Below are positions 5,899-39,634 of a stretch of 64,000 nucleotides of DNA, in pieces. The notes beneath the pieces are model-generated. The model saw only the letters and a program-made list of their open reading frames with translations, was not told where the DNA came from and did not search any database. This DNA comes from an uncultured Erysipelotrichaceae bacterium (GTDB lineage Bacteria > Bacillota_I > Bacilli_A > RFN20 > CAG-826), in assembly GCA_902800645.1 (NCBI GenBank), contig CADCFC010000003.1, positions 1,598 through 65,597 of the forward strand, written 5' to 3'. A program made the translations under genes and the position numbers. The stretch's first letter is position 1. The number at the start of each line of letters is the position of its first letter.

Positions 5899-6882
5899 AT
5901 GGCAGATAAATTATTCTTAACAATCGATGAACAATTGAACCATTTATCATTAGATAAAGAGATTTCTTGTGGTGAAGCGCATAAAGAATCATTACTGAGA
6001 ATTGGTTATTTTAATTTGGTTAATGGTTATAAAACACCATTTACATCTAGTAAGGATGCTCAGGGTAATCATATATACGCTAAAGGGACAACATTAGATG
6101 AGCTGATTAATCTTAAAAACTTTGATGATGACTTGAGATATATTTTGATTAGAACATTAACCAAATGTGAAGAAGAAATAAAAACAATCGCTAGTTATAT
6201 ATTAGAAAAATATAAGCCAGCTAAAATAACTTGGAGAAGTACAAACGCATATAATAAGGCGCTAGATAAATCTAATATTGATAGAATTAATAAGCTTATA
6301 AGCAGAATGCAAAAGCAATTAAACGAAAGAGAAGATTTGGAATATGTAAAGTTTTATAAATCGTCTCATAAAGGAAAAATCCCTATGTGGGTAATTACAA
6401 AAGCAATATATTTTGGAACATTCATTGATTTAATAGAATTATCTAAACCAATAGTCGCAGAATCGCTTTGTGAATTATATAATATTAAAGACATAAACAA
6501 TGATAACGATATTAAATTATTAATTGGTTCACTACACTGGATAAGAATTTTTAGAAACGCCTGTGCACATAATGAAAGAATATATTGCTTAAAAGGTGCA
6601 GGTAGAATTTTTGATATAGAAATAAGAAAATTTGGAAACAGATATATGAGAATCAAAGAAAGAAAACTATTTGATCTTCTTGTCTATCTCCGTTACTACA
6701 TGCAGAAGAAAGAATATCAACAATTAATTAAAAACATCAAAGATAAATTAATAAAACTCCAGTCATCTATATCAGTGTACGCTTTTGATAACATAAGAGG
6801 TGGGATGGGTATTAAAAATTTAGAAGACTTAGATATATTATCTAAAGATGGATTTGATAACGGTTACATGAAATTATATTAA
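5899..6882 (+). CDS. Abi_2 family (AbiD/AbiF-like) abortive-infection protein
   Basis: Family landmarks: RIGYFNLVNGYK (the YYRLSxY-like segment), NLKNFDDDLRYIL, and the hallmark SLHWIRIFRNACAHNERIY (RNxxAHxxR motif). Confidence 0.8.
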   Translation: MADKLFLTIDEQLNHLSLDKEISCGEAHKESLLRIGYFNLVNGYKTPFTSSKDAQGNHIYAKGTTLDELINLKNFDDDLRYILIRTLTKCEEEIKTIASYILEKYKPAKITWRSTNAYNKALDKSNIDRINKLISRMQKQLNEREDLEYVKFYKSSHKGKIPMWVITKAIYFGTFIDLIELSKPIVAESLCELYNIKDINNDNDIKLLIGSLHWIRIFRNACAHNERIYCLKGAGRIFDIEIRKFGNRYMRIKERKLFDLLVYLRYYMQKKEYQQLIKNIKDKLIKLQSSISVYAFDNIRGGMGIKNLEDLDILSKDGFDNGYMKLY

Positions 6883-12508: not shown

Positions 12509-12808
12509 AAATATCGTGGATGTATAAATATATCAAAATTAGGGAAAACTATATATAGAAATGATAATTGGAATTTTAAAGACTACTTTTAACCTTAAAA
12601 AACATAAAAGATTCATTTTATTGTATAAGTCATTATTATCACTTTACTTATTTTTTTATATAGCAAAAATCCATCTTACTTTTATCACAGATATACATTC
12701 ATCATATTTATTTATAGGTAAATTGACATCAACTTTGAAAGAATATCAAACTTAAAACGATATTTGTCCCCTTAAAGAAATAAAATCGAAAGACAAATGT
12801 ATTATGAA

Positions 12809-12847
12809 TCCTAAGTCTAGCGCGTCTGCAAGTTCCGCCACGCAAGC
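12809..12847 (-). pseudogene. Orphan 5' half of a tRNA-Leu(UAG)-like gene (acceptor strand, D-arm, 5' anticodon stem and loop only)
   Basis: Minus strand: GCTTGCG-TG-GCG-GAACTTGCAGA-CGC-G-CTAGA-CTTAGGA. This is colinear with the intact tRNA-Leu at 39550..39634 (GCGGATA-TG-GTG-GAATTGGTAGA-CAC-G-CAAGA-CTTAGAA). After the anticodon loop the sequence (TTCAT...) no longer pairs, and there is no variable arm, T-arm or CCA. Confidence 0.55.
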
Positions 12848-13011
12848 AAGATATTAAACGCGCAAACCTAATACCTTTCTAATTTATATCTTGAAAGATA
12901 AAATTAGCAAATGTTTTCTATAATTATATATAAAATATTGTTATAAAAAAACTCGGGTATCTAATCCCAAGTCGTTTATTCAACAATAAAATACAAGGAT
13001 ATAAATAAGCA

Positions 13012-13188
13012 CTAAAAATTAACAAACTTGCTCAACTCATCAATTGTGATTTGTTCTTCTTTATTATTGGTCGCACTTAAAACAACTGTGCCACTTTTTG
13101 TATATGTTAATTTAACGTACTTAGCGTTATTAGTTTTTTCTTCTTCTGCAGCACTTGGATTACTCAAAAGTTTGTCGATCTCGGACAT
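13012..13188 (-). CDS. 58-aa small hydrophilic protein, third gene of the AbiH-like operon
   Basis: Below the track's size cutoff. AGGAGTAAAAAA-ATG lies 24 nt after the stop of the 2-TM gene. Hand translation: MSEIDKLLSNPSAAEEEKTNNAKYVKLTYTKSGTVVLSATNNKEEQITIDELSKFVNF*. Confidence 0.45.
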   Translation of the reverse strand: MSEIDKLLSNPSAAEEEKTNNAKYVKLTYTKSGTVVLSATNNKEEQITIDELSKFVNF

Positions 13189-13212
13189 TTTTTTACTCCT
13201 AGAAATATAATA

Positions 13213-14061
13213 TCATTTCTTGTAATGTTCGCATAGCATTAATAGGCTTGGATAAGAAACATTACCTTCTTTTTTATAAATATCATAATAGAACAACTTA
13301 ACAACTTCTATAATGATATCTTTGAATTGAGCGTCCACCAATTCTCTGTCTAATAAATTGTTCATATATTGAATGGCCAAGCTCTCAAAGAAATTCAAAA
13401 CCTTTATTCTTCTTTCATGATAAATCCTTAACACTTGGGAACAACCAATCGTGTTTTTGTCTAATTTATATCCTTTTTCACCATTATAAACTTTGCTGAT
13501 GTGTTCAGAAAAACTATTACTCACAACATTAGGTTCAATAGTTAAAAACAAAATAGTCTTTTTAATTAAAAGGTTTTGATATTCATCTTCGTTTTCAAAT
13601 TCAGATTCAAACTTTTTAATTGCTTCTTCTTGAATCTCTAATGATGGCTCAACTTTTAATCTCGCCTTTTTAAGCGAACCCCTAACTTCAACTTGAACAT
13701 TTTTTGTGAAGCGATAAAGAGGGGTTGTACTGTAGTTAAATTCTTTGATTGCTTCAATAACTGCACCAAGCTTAGTTTCTTTCTCCTTCGCTCTTCGAGA
13801 ACGTTCATTAAATAAATACGTTCCAACCGCATTTAATAAAATACCGGCAGAAAATAGAGATCCAGCAATACCAATTGCAATCGTATGTAGTTCCTTTGTG
13901 TTAAAGTTCTTATTTTCTAGGAAAAAGAAAATCAATAAAACAACAATTGCAATAACACCAATAACGAGAAATGCTCCAACAAACACATAGAAAACAATTG
14001 TTGGAATCTTAATCTCGCGTTTATTTGTATCATAATTCTTTTTGTTATCTTTCATATACAT
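13213..14061 (-). CDS. Two-TM membrane protein with a cytoplasmic C-terminal domain (DUF4760-like by eye)
   Basis: Two hydrophobic helices: IPTIVFYVFVGAFLVIGVIAIVVLLIFFFL and TIAIGIAGSLFSAGILLNAVGTYLF. The C-terminal LNFFESLAIQYMNNLLDRELVDAQF...YPSLLMLCEHY resembles my memory of DUF4760-type proteins. It lies 43 nt downstream of the AbiH-like gene. Confidence 0.6.
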   Translation of the reverse strand: MYMKDNKKNYDTNKREIKIPTIVFYVFVGAFLVIGVIAIVVLLIFFFLENKNFNTKELHTIAIGIAGSLFSAGILLNAVGTYLFNERSRRAKEKETKLGAVIEAIKEFNYSTTPLYRFTKNVQVEVRGSLKKARLKVEPSLEIQEEAIKKFESEFENEDEYQNLLIKKTILFLTIEPNVVSNSFSEHISKVYNGEKGYKLDKNTIGCSQVLRIYHERRIKVLNFFESLAIQYMNNLLDRELVDAQFKDIIIEVVKLFYYDIYKKEGNVSYPSLLMLCEHYKK

Positions 14062-14104
14062 TATTATCTTATAACTTTATTCTACTGTCTATGTTAAATG
14101 GGGA

Positions 14105-15271
14105 TTAAATTTTTCTAATTTGTAGCCTGTTTTCCAATTGTAATCTGCTGATAATTGTAGTGACTTTTTCTTCACTTCCTGATTTTTTAGCGTAGTCGGT
14201 CAGTAATTTATAGACAGAAGAAACAAAAGCTGCTCTAATATTGGCGTTTTCTTCTTCGGTTTCTTTGTATTCTGTATAGCAAAATATAAGCGATATACCA
14301 CTATTGTAAATGTCATAATAATCAAACAACGAATGAAAATAAGAATAGTCCTGTGGGCCAAGAGAATGACCATAAATTTTGATTTTATTAATATTTTCTT
14401 TTTTAGGCAATTCATACGGCTTGTCGGATAGATTCATTTTTTGCCATGCTTTGCTCATTTTAATGCTCAAAGTTTCGTTGTCAGAAACATCACCTGAATC
14501 AAACCCAATAATAATTTCATTTTCTAAACTTCCGTGTATATTGTAATAATTTCTTTTGAATTCATGACTTTCCGAATCAACAAACCATTTCAATGGATTT
14601 GTGTAATTGAATGAAATAATTGAAGTTGGCTCAGAATAAAAGTTAATTAATTTGCTTAGCAGTTTTTTACAATTGTTGGTGTATTCAGTATCACTGACAA
14701 CACAATTACTAATATACTCCTTAAAATCGGCTTCAAACTTTAATAGTTCTAAATACAAATATGAGTATATATTAAAACCAGATACTTCTATTTTTATTTT
14801 ACGGAAATGTTTTTTGATTGAAACTAATTGACTACGTTCCCCAACAATGTATCCTGACATTCTTGTAGAAAACAAGGAATTCAAATAATCTAAGTAATTT
14901 GAGCAATTGATAGGGAGGTTTATATTCATCCATTTATCATCTTTTTTATTAAATGTAACAATCTTTTTAACGAAACTTTCAATATCCATCCAACGCGGAT
15001 TACTAATAGGAATTTTTTCAACAATTTGATTAAACTCGCTATCATAATAAGTTTCGTCGTAAAAAGCAAAATAAAACAACAAATACCAAATATTATCGCA
15101 CACAACGTTTAAATAAGTGTCAGCAGCGGATTTAATAGTTGAAATTTTTGTTTTAAAAAAATCATTAAAACTACTTTTAAGGCCACAGTTTAAATCAAAA
15201 CCATTGCCGATAACCAATAATGTTCCAATTATTTCATTTTCGCTTGGGCTAATTCTATTTTTTGTATTCAT
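14105..15271 (-). CDS. AbiH-like abortive-infection protein
   Basis: The N-terminal LLVIGNGFDLNCGLKSSFNDFF matches the AbiH signature (IIGNGFDLxHGLxTxYxDF). The C-terminal IKIYGHSLGPQDYSYFHSLF matches the second AbiH block (GHSLxxxDxxYF). Confidence 0.75.
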   Translation of the reverse strand: MNTKNRISPSENEIIGTLLVIGNGFDLNCGLKSSFNDFFKTKISTIKSAADTYLNVVCDNIWYLLFYFAFYDETYYDSEFNQIVEKIPISNPRWMDIESFVKKIVTFNKKDDKWMNINLPINCSNYLDYLNSLFSTRMSGYIVGERSQLVSIKKHFRKIKIEVSGFNIYSYLYLELLKFEADFKEYISNCVVSDTEYTNNCKKLLSKLINFYSEPTSIISFNYTNPLKWFVDSESHEFKRNYYNIHGSLENEIIIGFDSGDVSDNETLSIKMSKAWQKMNLSDKPYELPKKENINKIKIYGHSLGPQDYSYFHSLFDYYDIYNSGISLIFCYTEYKETEEENANIRAAFVSSVYKLLTDYAKKSGSEEKVTTIISRLQLENRLQIRKI

Positions 15272-15790: not shown

Positions 15791-15947
15791 AATAGATTCA
15801 TAATTGATAAGAATCAGCCATATAAATATAACATCGCCATCATCATTCTTGGTGAACTATTTAATGAAGGAATAATAGATATTTTTGATATAGCGGAATC
15901 TCTTATTAAATTAACAAAACTATATAATCTCCCAGTAATAGATATTT
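15791..15947. repeat. Island repeat, copy 2 (left-hand 157 nt only)
   Basis: Colinear without indels with 17213..17369 (about 85% identity by eye): aatagattcataattgataaRaatcagccatat...gatatttttgatatag...ctcttattaaatt... It diverges just before the hairpin half. Confidence 0.7.
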
Positions 15948-16208: not shown

Positions 16209-17132
16209 CTAATCCTTTGACAAAATAAATGATTTGTTTGTTTTCTTTACTATAAAATTATTTGTCTTCTCACAGCAAACAAATCCGTCACTCCCAAAAG
16301 AAATTAGTTGAAATTTCATTTCTAGTTTTGGCTGTACCATGAAAAAATTTTGAAATGCAATAATTATATTAGGAATATTATCAACAAGAAATTTTTCCCA
16401 TTTAGCTGCCTCCTGACGATAAATGATTGATTTCAATGTTGAATCAATAGGGTTGCCGTTTGACATTGAACCACCACCAGCGTTAGTTAAAACCAAGCCA
16501 TTATCAAGAACGGCAAAACCATTGATATTACATTCTCTCAGGGCCTTTATGTCATTATTAGAAAGTTCTTTAGAAGCAACGCCATTAACAATAAATGGGC
16601 TTAATAAGTTTGGCCAATTCCGATATATTATTTCCAAATAATCCTTGTCCGTAAAGCAATGAATATCATTATGATCTTTTACGGTAATGAAATATACAAA
16701 ATAATCTGTAACCCATGCGATAATCAAATGGTTGCTTCTTTGAACTCTGCCATCAGTCCTATATCTCCTGGACAAATGAAAATGGAATAAATTCCAATCA
16801 TTCAGGATACCATCGTTGTAAGTAACGTCATCATACTTTTCAGTTAAAAAGGGTTTTAAATTGTCTCCGTTAATTATTTTTATTTCAAGTTCACTCAATG
16901 CCAGCTCATATCCAGACGGACAGACAAATGAATCAGACTTTTTAACTTGTCTAGGCATTGGTTTTATTGTTTTCTTCATCATCTTAAACATTTCAATAGG
17001 TGCATTTCGATTTACTGTTGGTGAAAACCCATTATTAACAATATTGCTTTTAGCAATTTTTTCACAATCTTTTTCGAAATCAATTTCAGCAATCCATAAA
17101 TATTTTTCAGGAATTTTGGCTTTGTAAATCAT
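16209..17132 (-). CDS. Hypothetical 307-aa protein (orphan cassette between two repeat copies)
   Basis: Clean ORF with no motif I can assign. It contains WNLFHFHLSRRYRTDGRVQRSNHLIIAWV. It is flanked by repeat copy 3 upstream and copy 2 downstream. Confidence 0.55.
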   Translation of the reverse strand: MIYKAKIPEKYLWIAEIDFEKDCEKIAKSNIVNNGFSPTVNRNAPIEMFKMMKKTIKPMPRQVKKSDSFVCPSGYELALSELEIKIINGDNLKPFLTEKYDDVTYNDGILNDWNLFHFHLSRRYRTDGRVQRSNHLIIAWVTDYFVYFITVKDHNDIHCFTDKDYLEIIYRNWPNLLSPFIVNGVASKELSNNDIKALRECNINGFAVLDNGLVLTNAGGGSMSNGNPIDSTLKSIIYRQEAAKWEKFLVDNIPNIIIAFQNFFMVQPKLEMKFQLISFGSDGFVCCEKTNNFIVKKTNKSFILSKD

Positions 17133-17212: not shown

Positions 17213-17442
17213 AATAGATTCATAATTGATAAAAATCAGCCATATGGATATAACATCGCCATCATTATTTTTGGTAAACTACGTAATGAAGTAATGATAG
17301 ATATTTTTGATATAGTAAAAGCTCTTATTAAATTTAGGATACTATAAAATCTCCAAGTTATAGATATTCCGGCAAGTGTTTGTCTACGCCAACTACTAGC
17401 CATGAACAACCTCTAGGACAAACACGAGCCATATATCATTTT
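17213..17442. repeat. Island repeat, copy 3 (full length, ~230 nt)
   Basis: The left half matches copy 2 and the right half matches copy 1. The stem is GTGTTTGTC (17376..17384) / GACAAACAC (17417..17425) with a ~32-nt loop. Confidence 0.7.
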
Positions 17443-39549: not shown

Positions 39550-39634
39550 TGGTGCGGATAACAAGAATCGAACTTGCACGAGTTTCCTCACAAGATTCTA
39601 AGTCTTGCGTGTCTACCAATTCCACCATATCCGC
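39550..39634 (-). tRNA. tRNA-Leu (anticodon UAG), type II with long variable arm, CCA encoded
   Basis: GCGGATA-TG-GTG-GAATTGGTAGA-CAC-G-CAAGA-CTTAGAA-TCTTG-TGAGGAAACTCGT-GCAAG-TTCGATT-CTTGT-TATCCGC-A-CCA. Confidence 0.9.

What the first reader, a model, noticed from the sequence alone, without database searches (positions are those of the whole stretch)
13012..15271. AbiH-like gene operonic with a 2-TM DUF4760-like protein and a 58-aa ORF
AbiH is usually treated as a single-gene abortive-infection determinant. Here the AbiH-like ORF carries both signature blocks (IGNGFDLNCGLKSSFNDFF and YGHSLGPQDYSYF). It is followed after 43 nt by a 282-aa protein with two TM helices and a cytoplasmic domain. 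After a further 24 nt comes a well-placed RBS (AGGAGT) and a 58-aa acidic ORF that the six-frame track misses.

The tight same-strand spacing suggests a three-gene unit in which the membrane protein could be the killing effector and AbiH the sensor/enzyme. It could equally be an independent membrane effector module.
Basis: partly seen in the sequence, partly recalled or inferred. Interest (0 to 1): 0.6.

Follow-up and report, generated by a model that had tools for sequence, protein, structure and literature searches.

The report
AbiH beside an independent two-gene module
The three genes are real, but they are two separate units parked side by side in a phage-defence island of an uncultured rumen bacterium: an ordinary one-gene AbiH, and a rare, undescribed pair (a membrane-anchored protein plus a ~58-residue partner) that always travels together and never otherwise with AbiH.

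Summary
On the minus strand lie an AbiH-family gene (14105-15271, Pfam AbiH 69.7 bits), a 282-aa 2-TM protein (13213-14061) after 43 nt, and a 58-aa ORF (13012-13188) after 24 nt with an AGGAGT RBS. A hairpin plus U7 terminator follows.

The three-gene-system reading is not supported.
- The 2-TM gene and the small ORF are strictly linked in all 12 loci examined. Gaps range from -8 to +29 nt, plus one of about 50 nt. The small ORF has dN/dS of 0.08-0.18.
- AbiH is adjacent only in the window's own strain.
- None of 29 other AbiH loci in the order has the pair. Nor do the closest AbiH homologs (62-69% identity) or two plasmid AbiH genes.
- Two genomes carry the pair but have no AbiH at all.

AbiH is therefore a stand-alone abortive-infection gene. 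The literature calls it sirtuin-like.

The pair is an independent mobile cassette and is very rare: about 15 full-length 50%-identity clusters among 1.84 billion representatives. It is only remotely DUF4760-like, has no solved-structure match, and is absent from PADLOC, PHROGs and NCBIfam. It nearly always sits beside known defence genes. It is most likely a membrane effector held in check or triggered by its small partner (defence or toxin-antitoxin-like), but this is untested.

The parts
14105..15271 (-). AbiH-family gene (388 aa), a stand-alone abortive-infection gene. Invariant motifs: G22-N23-G24-x-D26, F221-N222-Y223-T224, H246-G247, Y300-G301-H302-S303-L304-G305.
   Evidence: Pfam PF14253 69.7 bits against a 30.9 cut-off. 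PADLOC AbiH E 1.3e-6. 472 homologs, all carrying PF14253. Invariant columns in a 37-sequence alignment. AF2 model pLDDT 86.8, pTM 0.85. About 30% identity over the full length to annotated 'AbiH family protein' genes on plasmids.
14062..14104 (-). 43-nt spacer between AbiH and the 2-TM gene. It has no terminator. A sigma-70-like TAGACA-17-GATAAT motif ends 2 nt before the ATG.
   Evidence: Folding energy -0.1 kcal/mol. The number of promoter-like sites in the region is not above the shuffled expectation (21 found against 25.5 expected), so the promoter is unproven.
13213..14061 (-). First gene of the pair: a 282-aa membrane protein. It has an N-in/C-in helical hairpin (TM at about 21-47 and 60-80), a long stalk helix to about residue 129, and a cytoplasmic all-helical domain that is remotely DUF4760-like. 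Invariant residues: N109, R218, N223, E226, F246, Y262, E265, Y270, P271, L273.
   Evidence: Only 18 hits among 1.84 billion representatives. No fold match in the PDB or BFVD. No PADLOC, PHROGs or NCBIfam family.
13195..13200 (-). Shine-Dalgarno AGGAGT, 6 nt upstream of the small ORF's ATG.
   Evidence: SD-like motifs occupy the same position in 6 of 8 loci, and one locus has an 8-nt overlap instead.
13012..13188 (-). Second gene of the pair: a 58-aa soluble protein with the invariant core Y-V-x3-Y-T-x-S-G-x2-V-L-x-A-T (KYVKLTYTKSGTVVLSATNN in the window).
   Evidence: Homologs follow the 2-TM gene in 12 of 12 loci. dN/dS 0.08-0.18. The family has only 12 clusters at 90% identity. No Pfam or PDB relative.
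12943..12973 (-). Intrinsic-terminator-like hairpin (8 bp, 4 G-C pairs) followed by U7. It marks the end of the transcription unit.
12806..12847 (-). Orphan 5' half of a tRNA-Leu(UAG), probably an old integration seam. It marks the downstream edge of the AbiH-plus-pair block.
   Evidence: Alignment to the intact tRNA-Leu at 39550-39634. It matches through the anticodon loop and then diverges.
15791..15946 (.). Island repeat copy, 87% identical to 17213-17368. It marks the upstream edge of the AbiH-plus-pair block.

Best explanation
Two independent units lie head to tail in a defence island at the variable end of a polysaccharide locus. The host is an uncultured rumen Bacilli bacterium with a genome of about 1.3 Mb.

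Unit 1 is an ordinary single-gene AbiH. The literature describes AbiH as a sirtuin (SIR2)-like protein that may abort infection by consuming NAD+. It would therefore carry its own effector activity and need no membrane partner.

Unit 2 is a self-contained, horizontally mobile two-gene cassette.
- A helical hairpin anchors the 282-aa protein in the membrane. Its all-helical, remotely DUF4760-like domain, which has a set of invariant polar residues, faces the cytoplasm.
- The ~58-aa protein is made from the same mRNA by translational coupling.

Most likely mechanism of unit 2 (inferred, not shown): the small protein binds the cytoplasmic domain and either keeps the membrane protein inactive or reports infection. 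When phage infection removes or alters that control, the membrane protein damages the membrane or otherwise halts the cell, as in abortive infection or a toxin-antitoxin module.

Shown here: gene reality, strict pair linkage, independence from AbiH, and residence in defence islands.
Inferred: physical interaction of the two proteins, toxicity, and an anti-phage role.

My odds: the pair is independent of AbiH, 0.9. The pair is a defence or toxin-antitoxin-like module, about 0.55.
For: Pair linkage:
- The small ORF follows the 2-TM gene in all 12 loci, at 22-29 nt, 12 nt, about 50 nt, or with an 8-nt overlap. This holds down to 28-30% identity of the large protein.
- A search starting from the small protein recovers only loci that also have the 2-TM gene.
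- The small ORF is under purifying selection.

Independence from AbiH:
- AbiH is found only in the window's own strain among the pair loci.
- 0 of 29 other AbiH loci in the order carry either pair gene within 1.5 kb.
- No membrane partner recurs downstream of AbiH.
- The closest AbiH homologs (62-69% identity) are followed by glycosyltransferases, or by a 650-nt gap and then an unrelated module.
- AbiH on plasmids stands alone.
- AbiH occurs in 47 of 401 genomes of the order, whereas the full-length pair occurs in about 3.
- G012 and G341 have the pair but no AbiH.
- No third gene recurs with the pair.

Defence context of the pair:
- Its neighbours within about 5 kb are a type II-A retron, a Tmn-like gene, Abi_2, a CBASS-type SAVED effector, an AriA/GajA-like ATPase, PDC-S31, PDC-S47 and a TIR protein.
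- In the window they are AbiH, a PD-T4-7 homolog and a DS8-like gene.

AbiH as a single gene and sirtuin-like: the review PMC13064643. In my alignment, the invariant N222 and H246-G247 align with the N-Y-D and H-G motifs of a SIR2_2 family.
Against: - There is no terminator between AbiH and the pair, and only 43 nt separate them, so in this strain they are probably co-transcribed. A strain-specific functional coupling cannot be excluded.
- No experiment or transcript data could be obtained.
- The defence role of the pair rests only on its neighbourhood.
- Neither pair protein has a recognisable catalytic or pore-forming domain, and the fold has no match.
- Several pair loci lie in polysaccharide gene clusters, which allows an envelope-related role.
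- The SIR2 likeness of AbiH was not reproduced by Foldseek (best E 0.33; ThsA at E 0.95). It was only weak by hhalign (E 1.2e-3, probability 20%).
Confidence: 0.72

Rival explanations
1. A genuine three-gene AbiH system. AbiH senses infection or makes a signal, and the 2-TM protein executes cell killing under control of the small protein, at least in this lineage.
For: The three genes are on the same strand with 43-nt and 24-nt gaps. The only terminator follows the third gene. The block lies between an island repeat and a tRNA remnant, with no seam visible between AbiH and the pair. Every near-identical copy, on 13 contigs, keeps the arrangement wherever the contig reaches far enough upstream.
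Against: Those 13 contigs are the same strain or species, with 100% identical protein. In every independent lineage the linkage is absent, from both sides. G012 and G341 have the pair but no AbiH. AbiH works as a single cloned gene in Lactococcus and is predicted to be its own NADase-type effector (PMC13064643).
Confidence: 0.06
2. The pair is a toxin-antitoxin or addiction module that only stabilises the island, with no direct anti-phage role. The membrane protein is the toxin and the small protein the antitoxin.
For: The layout is a two-gene, translationally coupled arrangement with a small partner. Distribution is sporadic and looks horizontally transferred (about 3 of 500 genomes). The pair sits next to a transposase, in mobile contexts and in different flanks while the proteins stay identical (L076 against L077, L078).
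Against: The small protein shows no DNA-binding domain typical of type II antitoxins. Toxin-antitoxin and defence roles are not exclusive. The strong enrichment of defence neighbours fits defence at least as well.
Confidence: 0.2
3. The pair serves the cell envelope or polysaccharide locus, for example as a regulator or accessory of capsule or teichoic-acid synthesis, and is unrelated to phage defence.
For: In the window, L001, L002 and L018 the pair lies within or at the edge of polysaccharide gene clusters, next to epimerase or transferase genes.
Against: Other loci have no polysaccharide genes: L017 lies between aminotransferases, L021 beside a retron and a KAP NTPase, L076 beside a GajA-like ATPase, and L078 beside Abi_2 and a transposase. 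In this lineage polysaccharide loci are themselves the hot spots where defence genes, including AbiH relatives, are inserted. The pair is absent from about 99% of related genomes that have such loci.
Confidence: 0.07

Closest known systems
AbiH of Lactococcus lactis S94 (Prevots et al. 1996; Pfam PF14253; single-gene 'AbiH' in PADLOC and DefenseFinder)
   Same: The 388-aa protein passes the Pfam AbiH threshold and matches PADLOC AbiH. It is co-linear over 96-97% of its length with annotated AbiH family proteins (about 30% identity). It keeps the family's invariant GNGFD, NYT, HG and YGHSLG motifs. Like them, it lies in mobile or defence contexts with no conserved partner.
   Different: It is a divergent branch found in rumen Bacilli MAGs. 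Here it happens to be followed at 43 nt by an unrelated two-gene cassette. No phenotype has been tested.
DUF4760 (Pfam PF15956), membrane-anchored proteins of unknown function in bacteria and phages
   Same: The C-terminal helical domain (about residues 120-260) gives consistent sub-threshold matches to DUF4760 in 14 of 18 family members (best E 6.5e-5). Both are membrane-anchored with a soluble helical domain. Earlier unverified notes of this scan report that canonical DUF4760 genes in prophage hot spots also travel with a tiny partner gene.
   Different: No member reaches Pfam's 25-bit cut-off. This family has a two-helix hairpin and is about 280 aa long, whereas Pfam (from memory) describes DUF4760 proteins as 147-190 aa. 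According to those notes, the partner of canonical DUF4760 is a 10-11-codon peptide gene upstream of a terminator. Here the partner is a 58-65-aa protein encoded downstream. The pair has no tblastn match in the phage or plasmid collections.
Membrane effectors of abortive-infection systems, such as the 2-TM effectors of CBASS, Pycsar and retrons, or lambda RexB controlled by RexA (from general knowledge)
   Same: It is a small membrane-anchored protein encoded in defence islands together with a controlling partner. The presumed outcome is membrane damage and arrest of the infected cell.
   Different: There is no cyclase, SAVED, RT or other sensor gene. The only partner is a ~58-aa protein. The membrane protein carries a large conserved cytoplasmic domain rather than being a bare TM effector. 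No homology to any of these was detected.

Membership tests
AbiH (PF14253) | Score above Pfam's gathering threshold over most of the model | tested here: met
   69.7 bits against 30.9, model positions 1-249 of 260. PADLOC AbiH E 1.3e-6.
AbiH (PF14253) | Full-length co-linearity with proteins annotated as AbiH, and conservation of the N-terminal GNGFD and C-terminal GHSLG blocks | tested here: met
   tblastn gives 96-97% coverage and about 30% identity to 'AbiH family protein' genes on Lactobacillales plasmids. Invariant G22, N23, G24, D26, G301, S303 and L304 in 37 sequences.
AbiH (PF14253) | Acts as a single gene, with no obligatory partner | tested here: met
   No conserved neighbour on either side in 32 AbiH loci or in two plasmid records. 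Single-gene cloning is cited in PMC13064643.
AbiH (PF14253) | Abortive-infection phenotype against phages | not testable with these tools
   Needs a phage challenge.
SIR2 / sirtuin-like NADase fold (as proposed for AbiH) | Structural or profile similarity to the SIR2 fold, with catalytic Asn and His | tested here: inconclusive
DUF4760 (PF15956) | Score above Pfam's gathering threshold (25 bits) | tested here: not met
   The window protein scores 18.2 bits. The highest bit score seen among the members listed individually was 21.8. 14 of 18 members hit below threshold (best E 6.5e-5). This is a remote relative, not a member.
Known anti-phage systems (PADLOC 2.0, NCBIfam 20.0, PHROGs 4) | Either pair protein matches a model of a described or candidate defence protein | tested here: not met
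   No PADLOC hit at E <= 0.1. There were only low-scoring NCBIfam hits over the N-terminal membrane region (residues 24-146), far below the cut-offs. No PHROG.
Type II toxin-antitoxin module | A two-gene operon in which a small partner neutralises a toxic protein; the antitoxin usually has a DNA-binding fold | tested here: inconclusive
   The two-gene coupled layout is met. No DNA-binding or known antitoxin domain was found in the small protein. Toxicity and neutralisation are not testable here.

The most novel reading that the evidence does not exclude
The 2-TM protein and its ~58-aa partner found an undescribed two-component anti-phage (abortive-infection) system of gut and rumen Bacilli. 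Earlier unverified notes of this scan describe cassettes of DUF4760 plus a micropeptide gene in proteobacterial prophages. Taken together with those, the pair would show that DUF4760-superfamily proteins are in general membrane-anchored switches, each controlled by a dedicated small protein or peptide.
Probability: 0.3. Interest if true: 0.65.

Novelty: new variant of a known kind. Interest (0 to 1): 0.4.

Why it matters
For AbiH the result is a caution. Tight spacing and a shared terminator in a defence island do not make a system, and AbiH remains a one-gene determinant here.

The useful product is the pair. It is a strictly linked, selection-maintained two-gene cassette with no described family and no structural match, and it almost always sits among known defence genes. 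It is small (about 1.05 kb) and easy to clone and test. If it protects against phages it would add a new minimal membrane-based system, and it would give a first functional handle on the DUF4760 superfamily. Its extreme rarity limits its general importance.

Tried and rejected
- The search for related loci with single proteins found no relatives in genome contigs. With the 18-sequence alignment it failed because the alignment was too divergent for pattern search. I used the genome search and the look-up of encoding contigs instead.
- Foldseek of both AF2 models against the PDB, and of the 2-TM model against BFVD, gave nothing significant.
- Profile searches of both pair proteins against PDB sequences gave nothing. 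For AbiH there was only a spurious Hsp104 hit.
- PHROGs, PADLOC and NCBIfam have no family for the pair. There was no tblastn hit in phage or plasmid records.
- Only one paper in the library mentions DUF4760, and only in passing.
- Many AbiH genes appeared to have a conserved ~470-aa upstream partner. This was an artefact: those ORFs run off the 1.5-kb flank, which caps their length, and they are not homologous to one another.
- In the window the small ORF is in frame with the 2-TM ORF, and reading through the TGA gives a 349-aa fusion. I considered programmed read-through and rejected it, because the gaps elsewhere are 22, 23 or 25 nt or a -8 overlap.
- I considered folding that fusion to test docking. 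I dropped the idea because the structure tool reports no contacts and the mixed alignment was poor.
- Aligning the DNA upstream of the pair across loci showed no conserved promoter.
Full report
**1. The observation**

The minus strand of 13012-15271 carries three ORFs exactly as described.
- A 388-aa ORF lies at 14105-15271.
- A 282-aa ORF lies at 13213-14061, after a 43-nt gap.
- A 58-aa ORF lies at 13012-13188, after a 24-nt gap, with AGGAGT 6 nt before its ATG.

The first protein contains both quoted blocks. It scores 69.7 bits against Pfam AbiH (cut-off 30.9) and matches PADLOC AbiH.

The only terminator-like element is a hairpin plus U7 at 12973-12943, directly after the third ORF. The 43-nt spacer is unstructured.

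The 282-aa protein has two hydrophobic helices with K/R-rich flanks on the N-terminal tail and after TM2. This gives an N-in/C-in topology with a cytoplasmic domain of about 195 aa. An AF2 model (pLDDT 87.3, pTM 0.71) shows a long helical hairpin followed by a helical bundle.

**2. The small ORF is a real gene and part of a strict pair**

The 2-TM protein has only three relatives at 51-63% identity among 5.8 billion clusters. A profile search of 1.84 billion representatives finds 18 hits, about 15 of them full length.

In every locus I could fetch, the 2-TM gene is followed by an ORF of 58-65 aa. The spacing is 22-29 nt, 12 nt, about 50 nt, or an 8-nt overlap.

The small proteins are homologous. 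They are 62-67% identical among close loci and still alignable at 30-40%. The core Y-V-x3-Y-T-x-S-G-x2-V-L-x-A-T is invariant.

Codon-level comparison gives pN 0.19-0.26 against pS 0.65-0.80, so dN/dS is about 0.08-0.18.

I then searched from the other side with the small-protein profile. It finds only 12 clusters. Three new ones that I looked up again sit 12-29 nt behind a homolog of about 280 aa. Profile scans confirm both genes in all 12 loci.

Acidity is not conserved across the small proteins (pI 4.2-9.0).

In the window the two ORFs share a frame. The gap lengths elsewhere show this is coincidence.

**3. AbiH is not part of it**

- Among the 12 pair loci, AbiH is present only in the window. 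The 13 contigs with a 100% identical protein represent the same strain.
- Upstream of the pair elsewhere lie an NAD-dependent epimerase (L001, L002), a broken sugar transferase (L018), an aminotransferase (L017) or unknown genes.
- AbiH is common in this order: 47 of 401 genomes.
- Of 30 AbiH loci with 1.5-kb flanks, only the window's own contains either pair gene.
- No membrane protein recurs downstream of AbiH.
- An apparent ~470-aa upstream partner was an artefact of the flank length.
- The closest AbiH homologs (62-69% identity) are followed by glycosyltransferase genes, or by a 650-nt gap and an M78-peptidase module.
- Two annotated plasmid AbiH genes stand alone.
- G012 (same genus) and G341 (another genus) carry the pair but have no AbiH anywhere.
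- No third gene recurs with the pair.

**4. Where these units live**

The window's genes from 2.4 to 19.8 kb form a stack of defence genes:
- a DS8-like phosphoesterase-STAND protein;
- an Abi_2 gene;
- a giant protein plus a kinase;
- the pair;
- AbiH;
- a PD-T4-7 homolog;
- a P-loop/zinc-finger protein.

These rest. The stack abuts a polysaccharide locus that starts at 20 kb. This agrees with earlier notes of this scan.

The AbiH-plus-pair block lies between an island repeat (15791-15946) and an orphan 5' half of a tRNA-Leu (about 12806-12847).

In relatives, both AbiH and the pair are inserted into polysaccharide clusters or other variable spots.

PADLOC identifies these neighbours of the pair elsewhere (Pfam):
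- a type II-A retron (L021);
- a Tmn-like gene plus Abi_2 (L018);
- a CBASS-type SAVED effector (L017);
- an AriA/AbiL/GajA-like ATPase (L076);
- PDC-S31 plus Abi_2 (L078);
- PDC-S47 plus a TIR protein (L001).

So seven of the eight loci with at least about 5 kb of flank have recognised defence genes next to the pair. The exception is L019, whose neighbours I did not scan against PADLOC and whose precomputed Pfam annotations show no defence family. The adjacency to AbiH is best explained as island stacking.

The organism belongs to uncultured rumen and gut Bacilli MAGs. These are labelled Bacillales UBA or Erysipelotrichaceae RUG in the records. The genome is about 1.3 Mb.

**5. What the pair is**

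- The cytoplasmic domain is a remote relative of DUF4760. 14 of 18 members hit that model below threshold (best E 6.5e-5), and no other family is hit by more than two members. None reaches the 25-bit cut-off, so the family is not a Pfam member.
- Ten residues are invariant across 18 sequences: N109, R218, N223, E226, F246, Y262, E265, Y270, P271 and L273 (first methionine excluded). F108, Q144, N234, Q245 and G266 are nearly invariant. This pattern fits a binding or catalytic pocket better than a bare pore-former.
- Neither protein has a relative among PDB sequences.
- The AF2 model has no significant Foldseek match in the PDB or BFVD.
- There is no PADLOC, NCBIfam or PHROGs family.
- There is no tblastn hit in the phage or plasmid collections.

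I commit to this mechanism as an inference. The small protein is made in step with the membrane protein and binds its cytoplasmic domain. Loss or alteration of that control during infection activates the membrane protein, which arrests or kills the cell. A pure toxin-antitoxin role and an envelope role are the rivals.

**6. AbiH mechanism**

My own tests are inconclusive.
- The AF2 model is confident (pLDDT 86.8, pTM 0.85), but Foldseek finds nothing significant. ThsA appears at E 0.95.
- hhalign against a SIR2_2 family gives E 1.2e-3 and 20% probability. It does, however, align the invariant N222-Y-T with N-Y-D, H246-G with H-G, and GHSLGPQD with GISLTDPD. Single-sequence comparisons keep finding the same two motifs.

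If AbiH is an NADase it is its own effector, which also argues against a need for a membrane executor.

**7. Verdict**

- The three-gene interpretation is not supported, and the independent-module alternative is.
- AbiH is a new member of a known family.
- The pair is an undescribed, very rare two-gene cassette that is a reasonable candidate for a new small defence or toxin-antitoxin-like system.

Noticed in passing
window 5899-6882 (+) and L078:944-1927: The window's 327-aa plus-strand ORF is 94.5% identical to an Abi_2-family gene in L078. There it lies about 2 kb from a pair that is only about 30% identical to the window's pair. This points to recent exchange of individual defence genes between these rumen bacteria. 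Abi_2 is also near the pair in L018.
   Followed up: partly
window 16209-17132 (-): The 307-aa 'orphan' between two copies of the island repeat is a clear PD-T4-7 homolog (PADLOC E 6e-32). The repeats are at 15791-15946 and 17213-17368 (87% identical). 5731-5837 matches 17336-17442 (84%).
   Followed up: partly
L066 (G149:C31), also G231:C17: A 508-aa SIR2_2-domain protein lies 17 nt upstream of a short (279-aa) AbiH-family gene. A second genome has SIR2_2 and AbiH hits about 2 kb apart. This could be a two-gene SIR2-plus-AbiH arrangement in a subset of AbiH genes.
   Followed up: no
L067, L068, L071-L075 (order-wide): A ~435-aa protein family with a SIR2_2 domain (N-terminus ...SFGFHFDP...) accounts for most of the SIR2_2 matches, which occur in 73 of 251 genomes of the order. 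That is far more common than expected for a defence gene, and its role is unknown.
   Followed up: no
L018:8500-9078 (G012): Directly upstream of the pair, a priming sugar transferase (Bac_transf) is split into 68-aa and 111-aa fragments. The pair seems to sit in a decayed part of the polysaccharide locus.
   Followed up: no
L076 versus L077: The small proteins are identical and the 2-TM C-termini are identical over the 96 residues visible in L077, yet the flanking gene orders differ. The desulfoferrodoxin gene is upstream in one and downstream in the other, and each has a ~1000-aa unknown gene downstream. This fits recent mobility or rearrangement of the cassette.
   Followed up: no
window 13189-13215 (-): In this strain only, the small ORF is in the same frame as the 2-TM ORF with no further stop. 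Reading through the single TGA would give a 349-aa fusion. The frame relation is not conserved elsewhere.
   Followed up: yes
L021:65-2105: A complete type II-A retron (NDT protein plus RT, PADLOC E 5e-29 and 1e-51) lies about 2.7 kb upstream of a pair homolog, and a KAP NTPase lies downstream.
   Followed up: no
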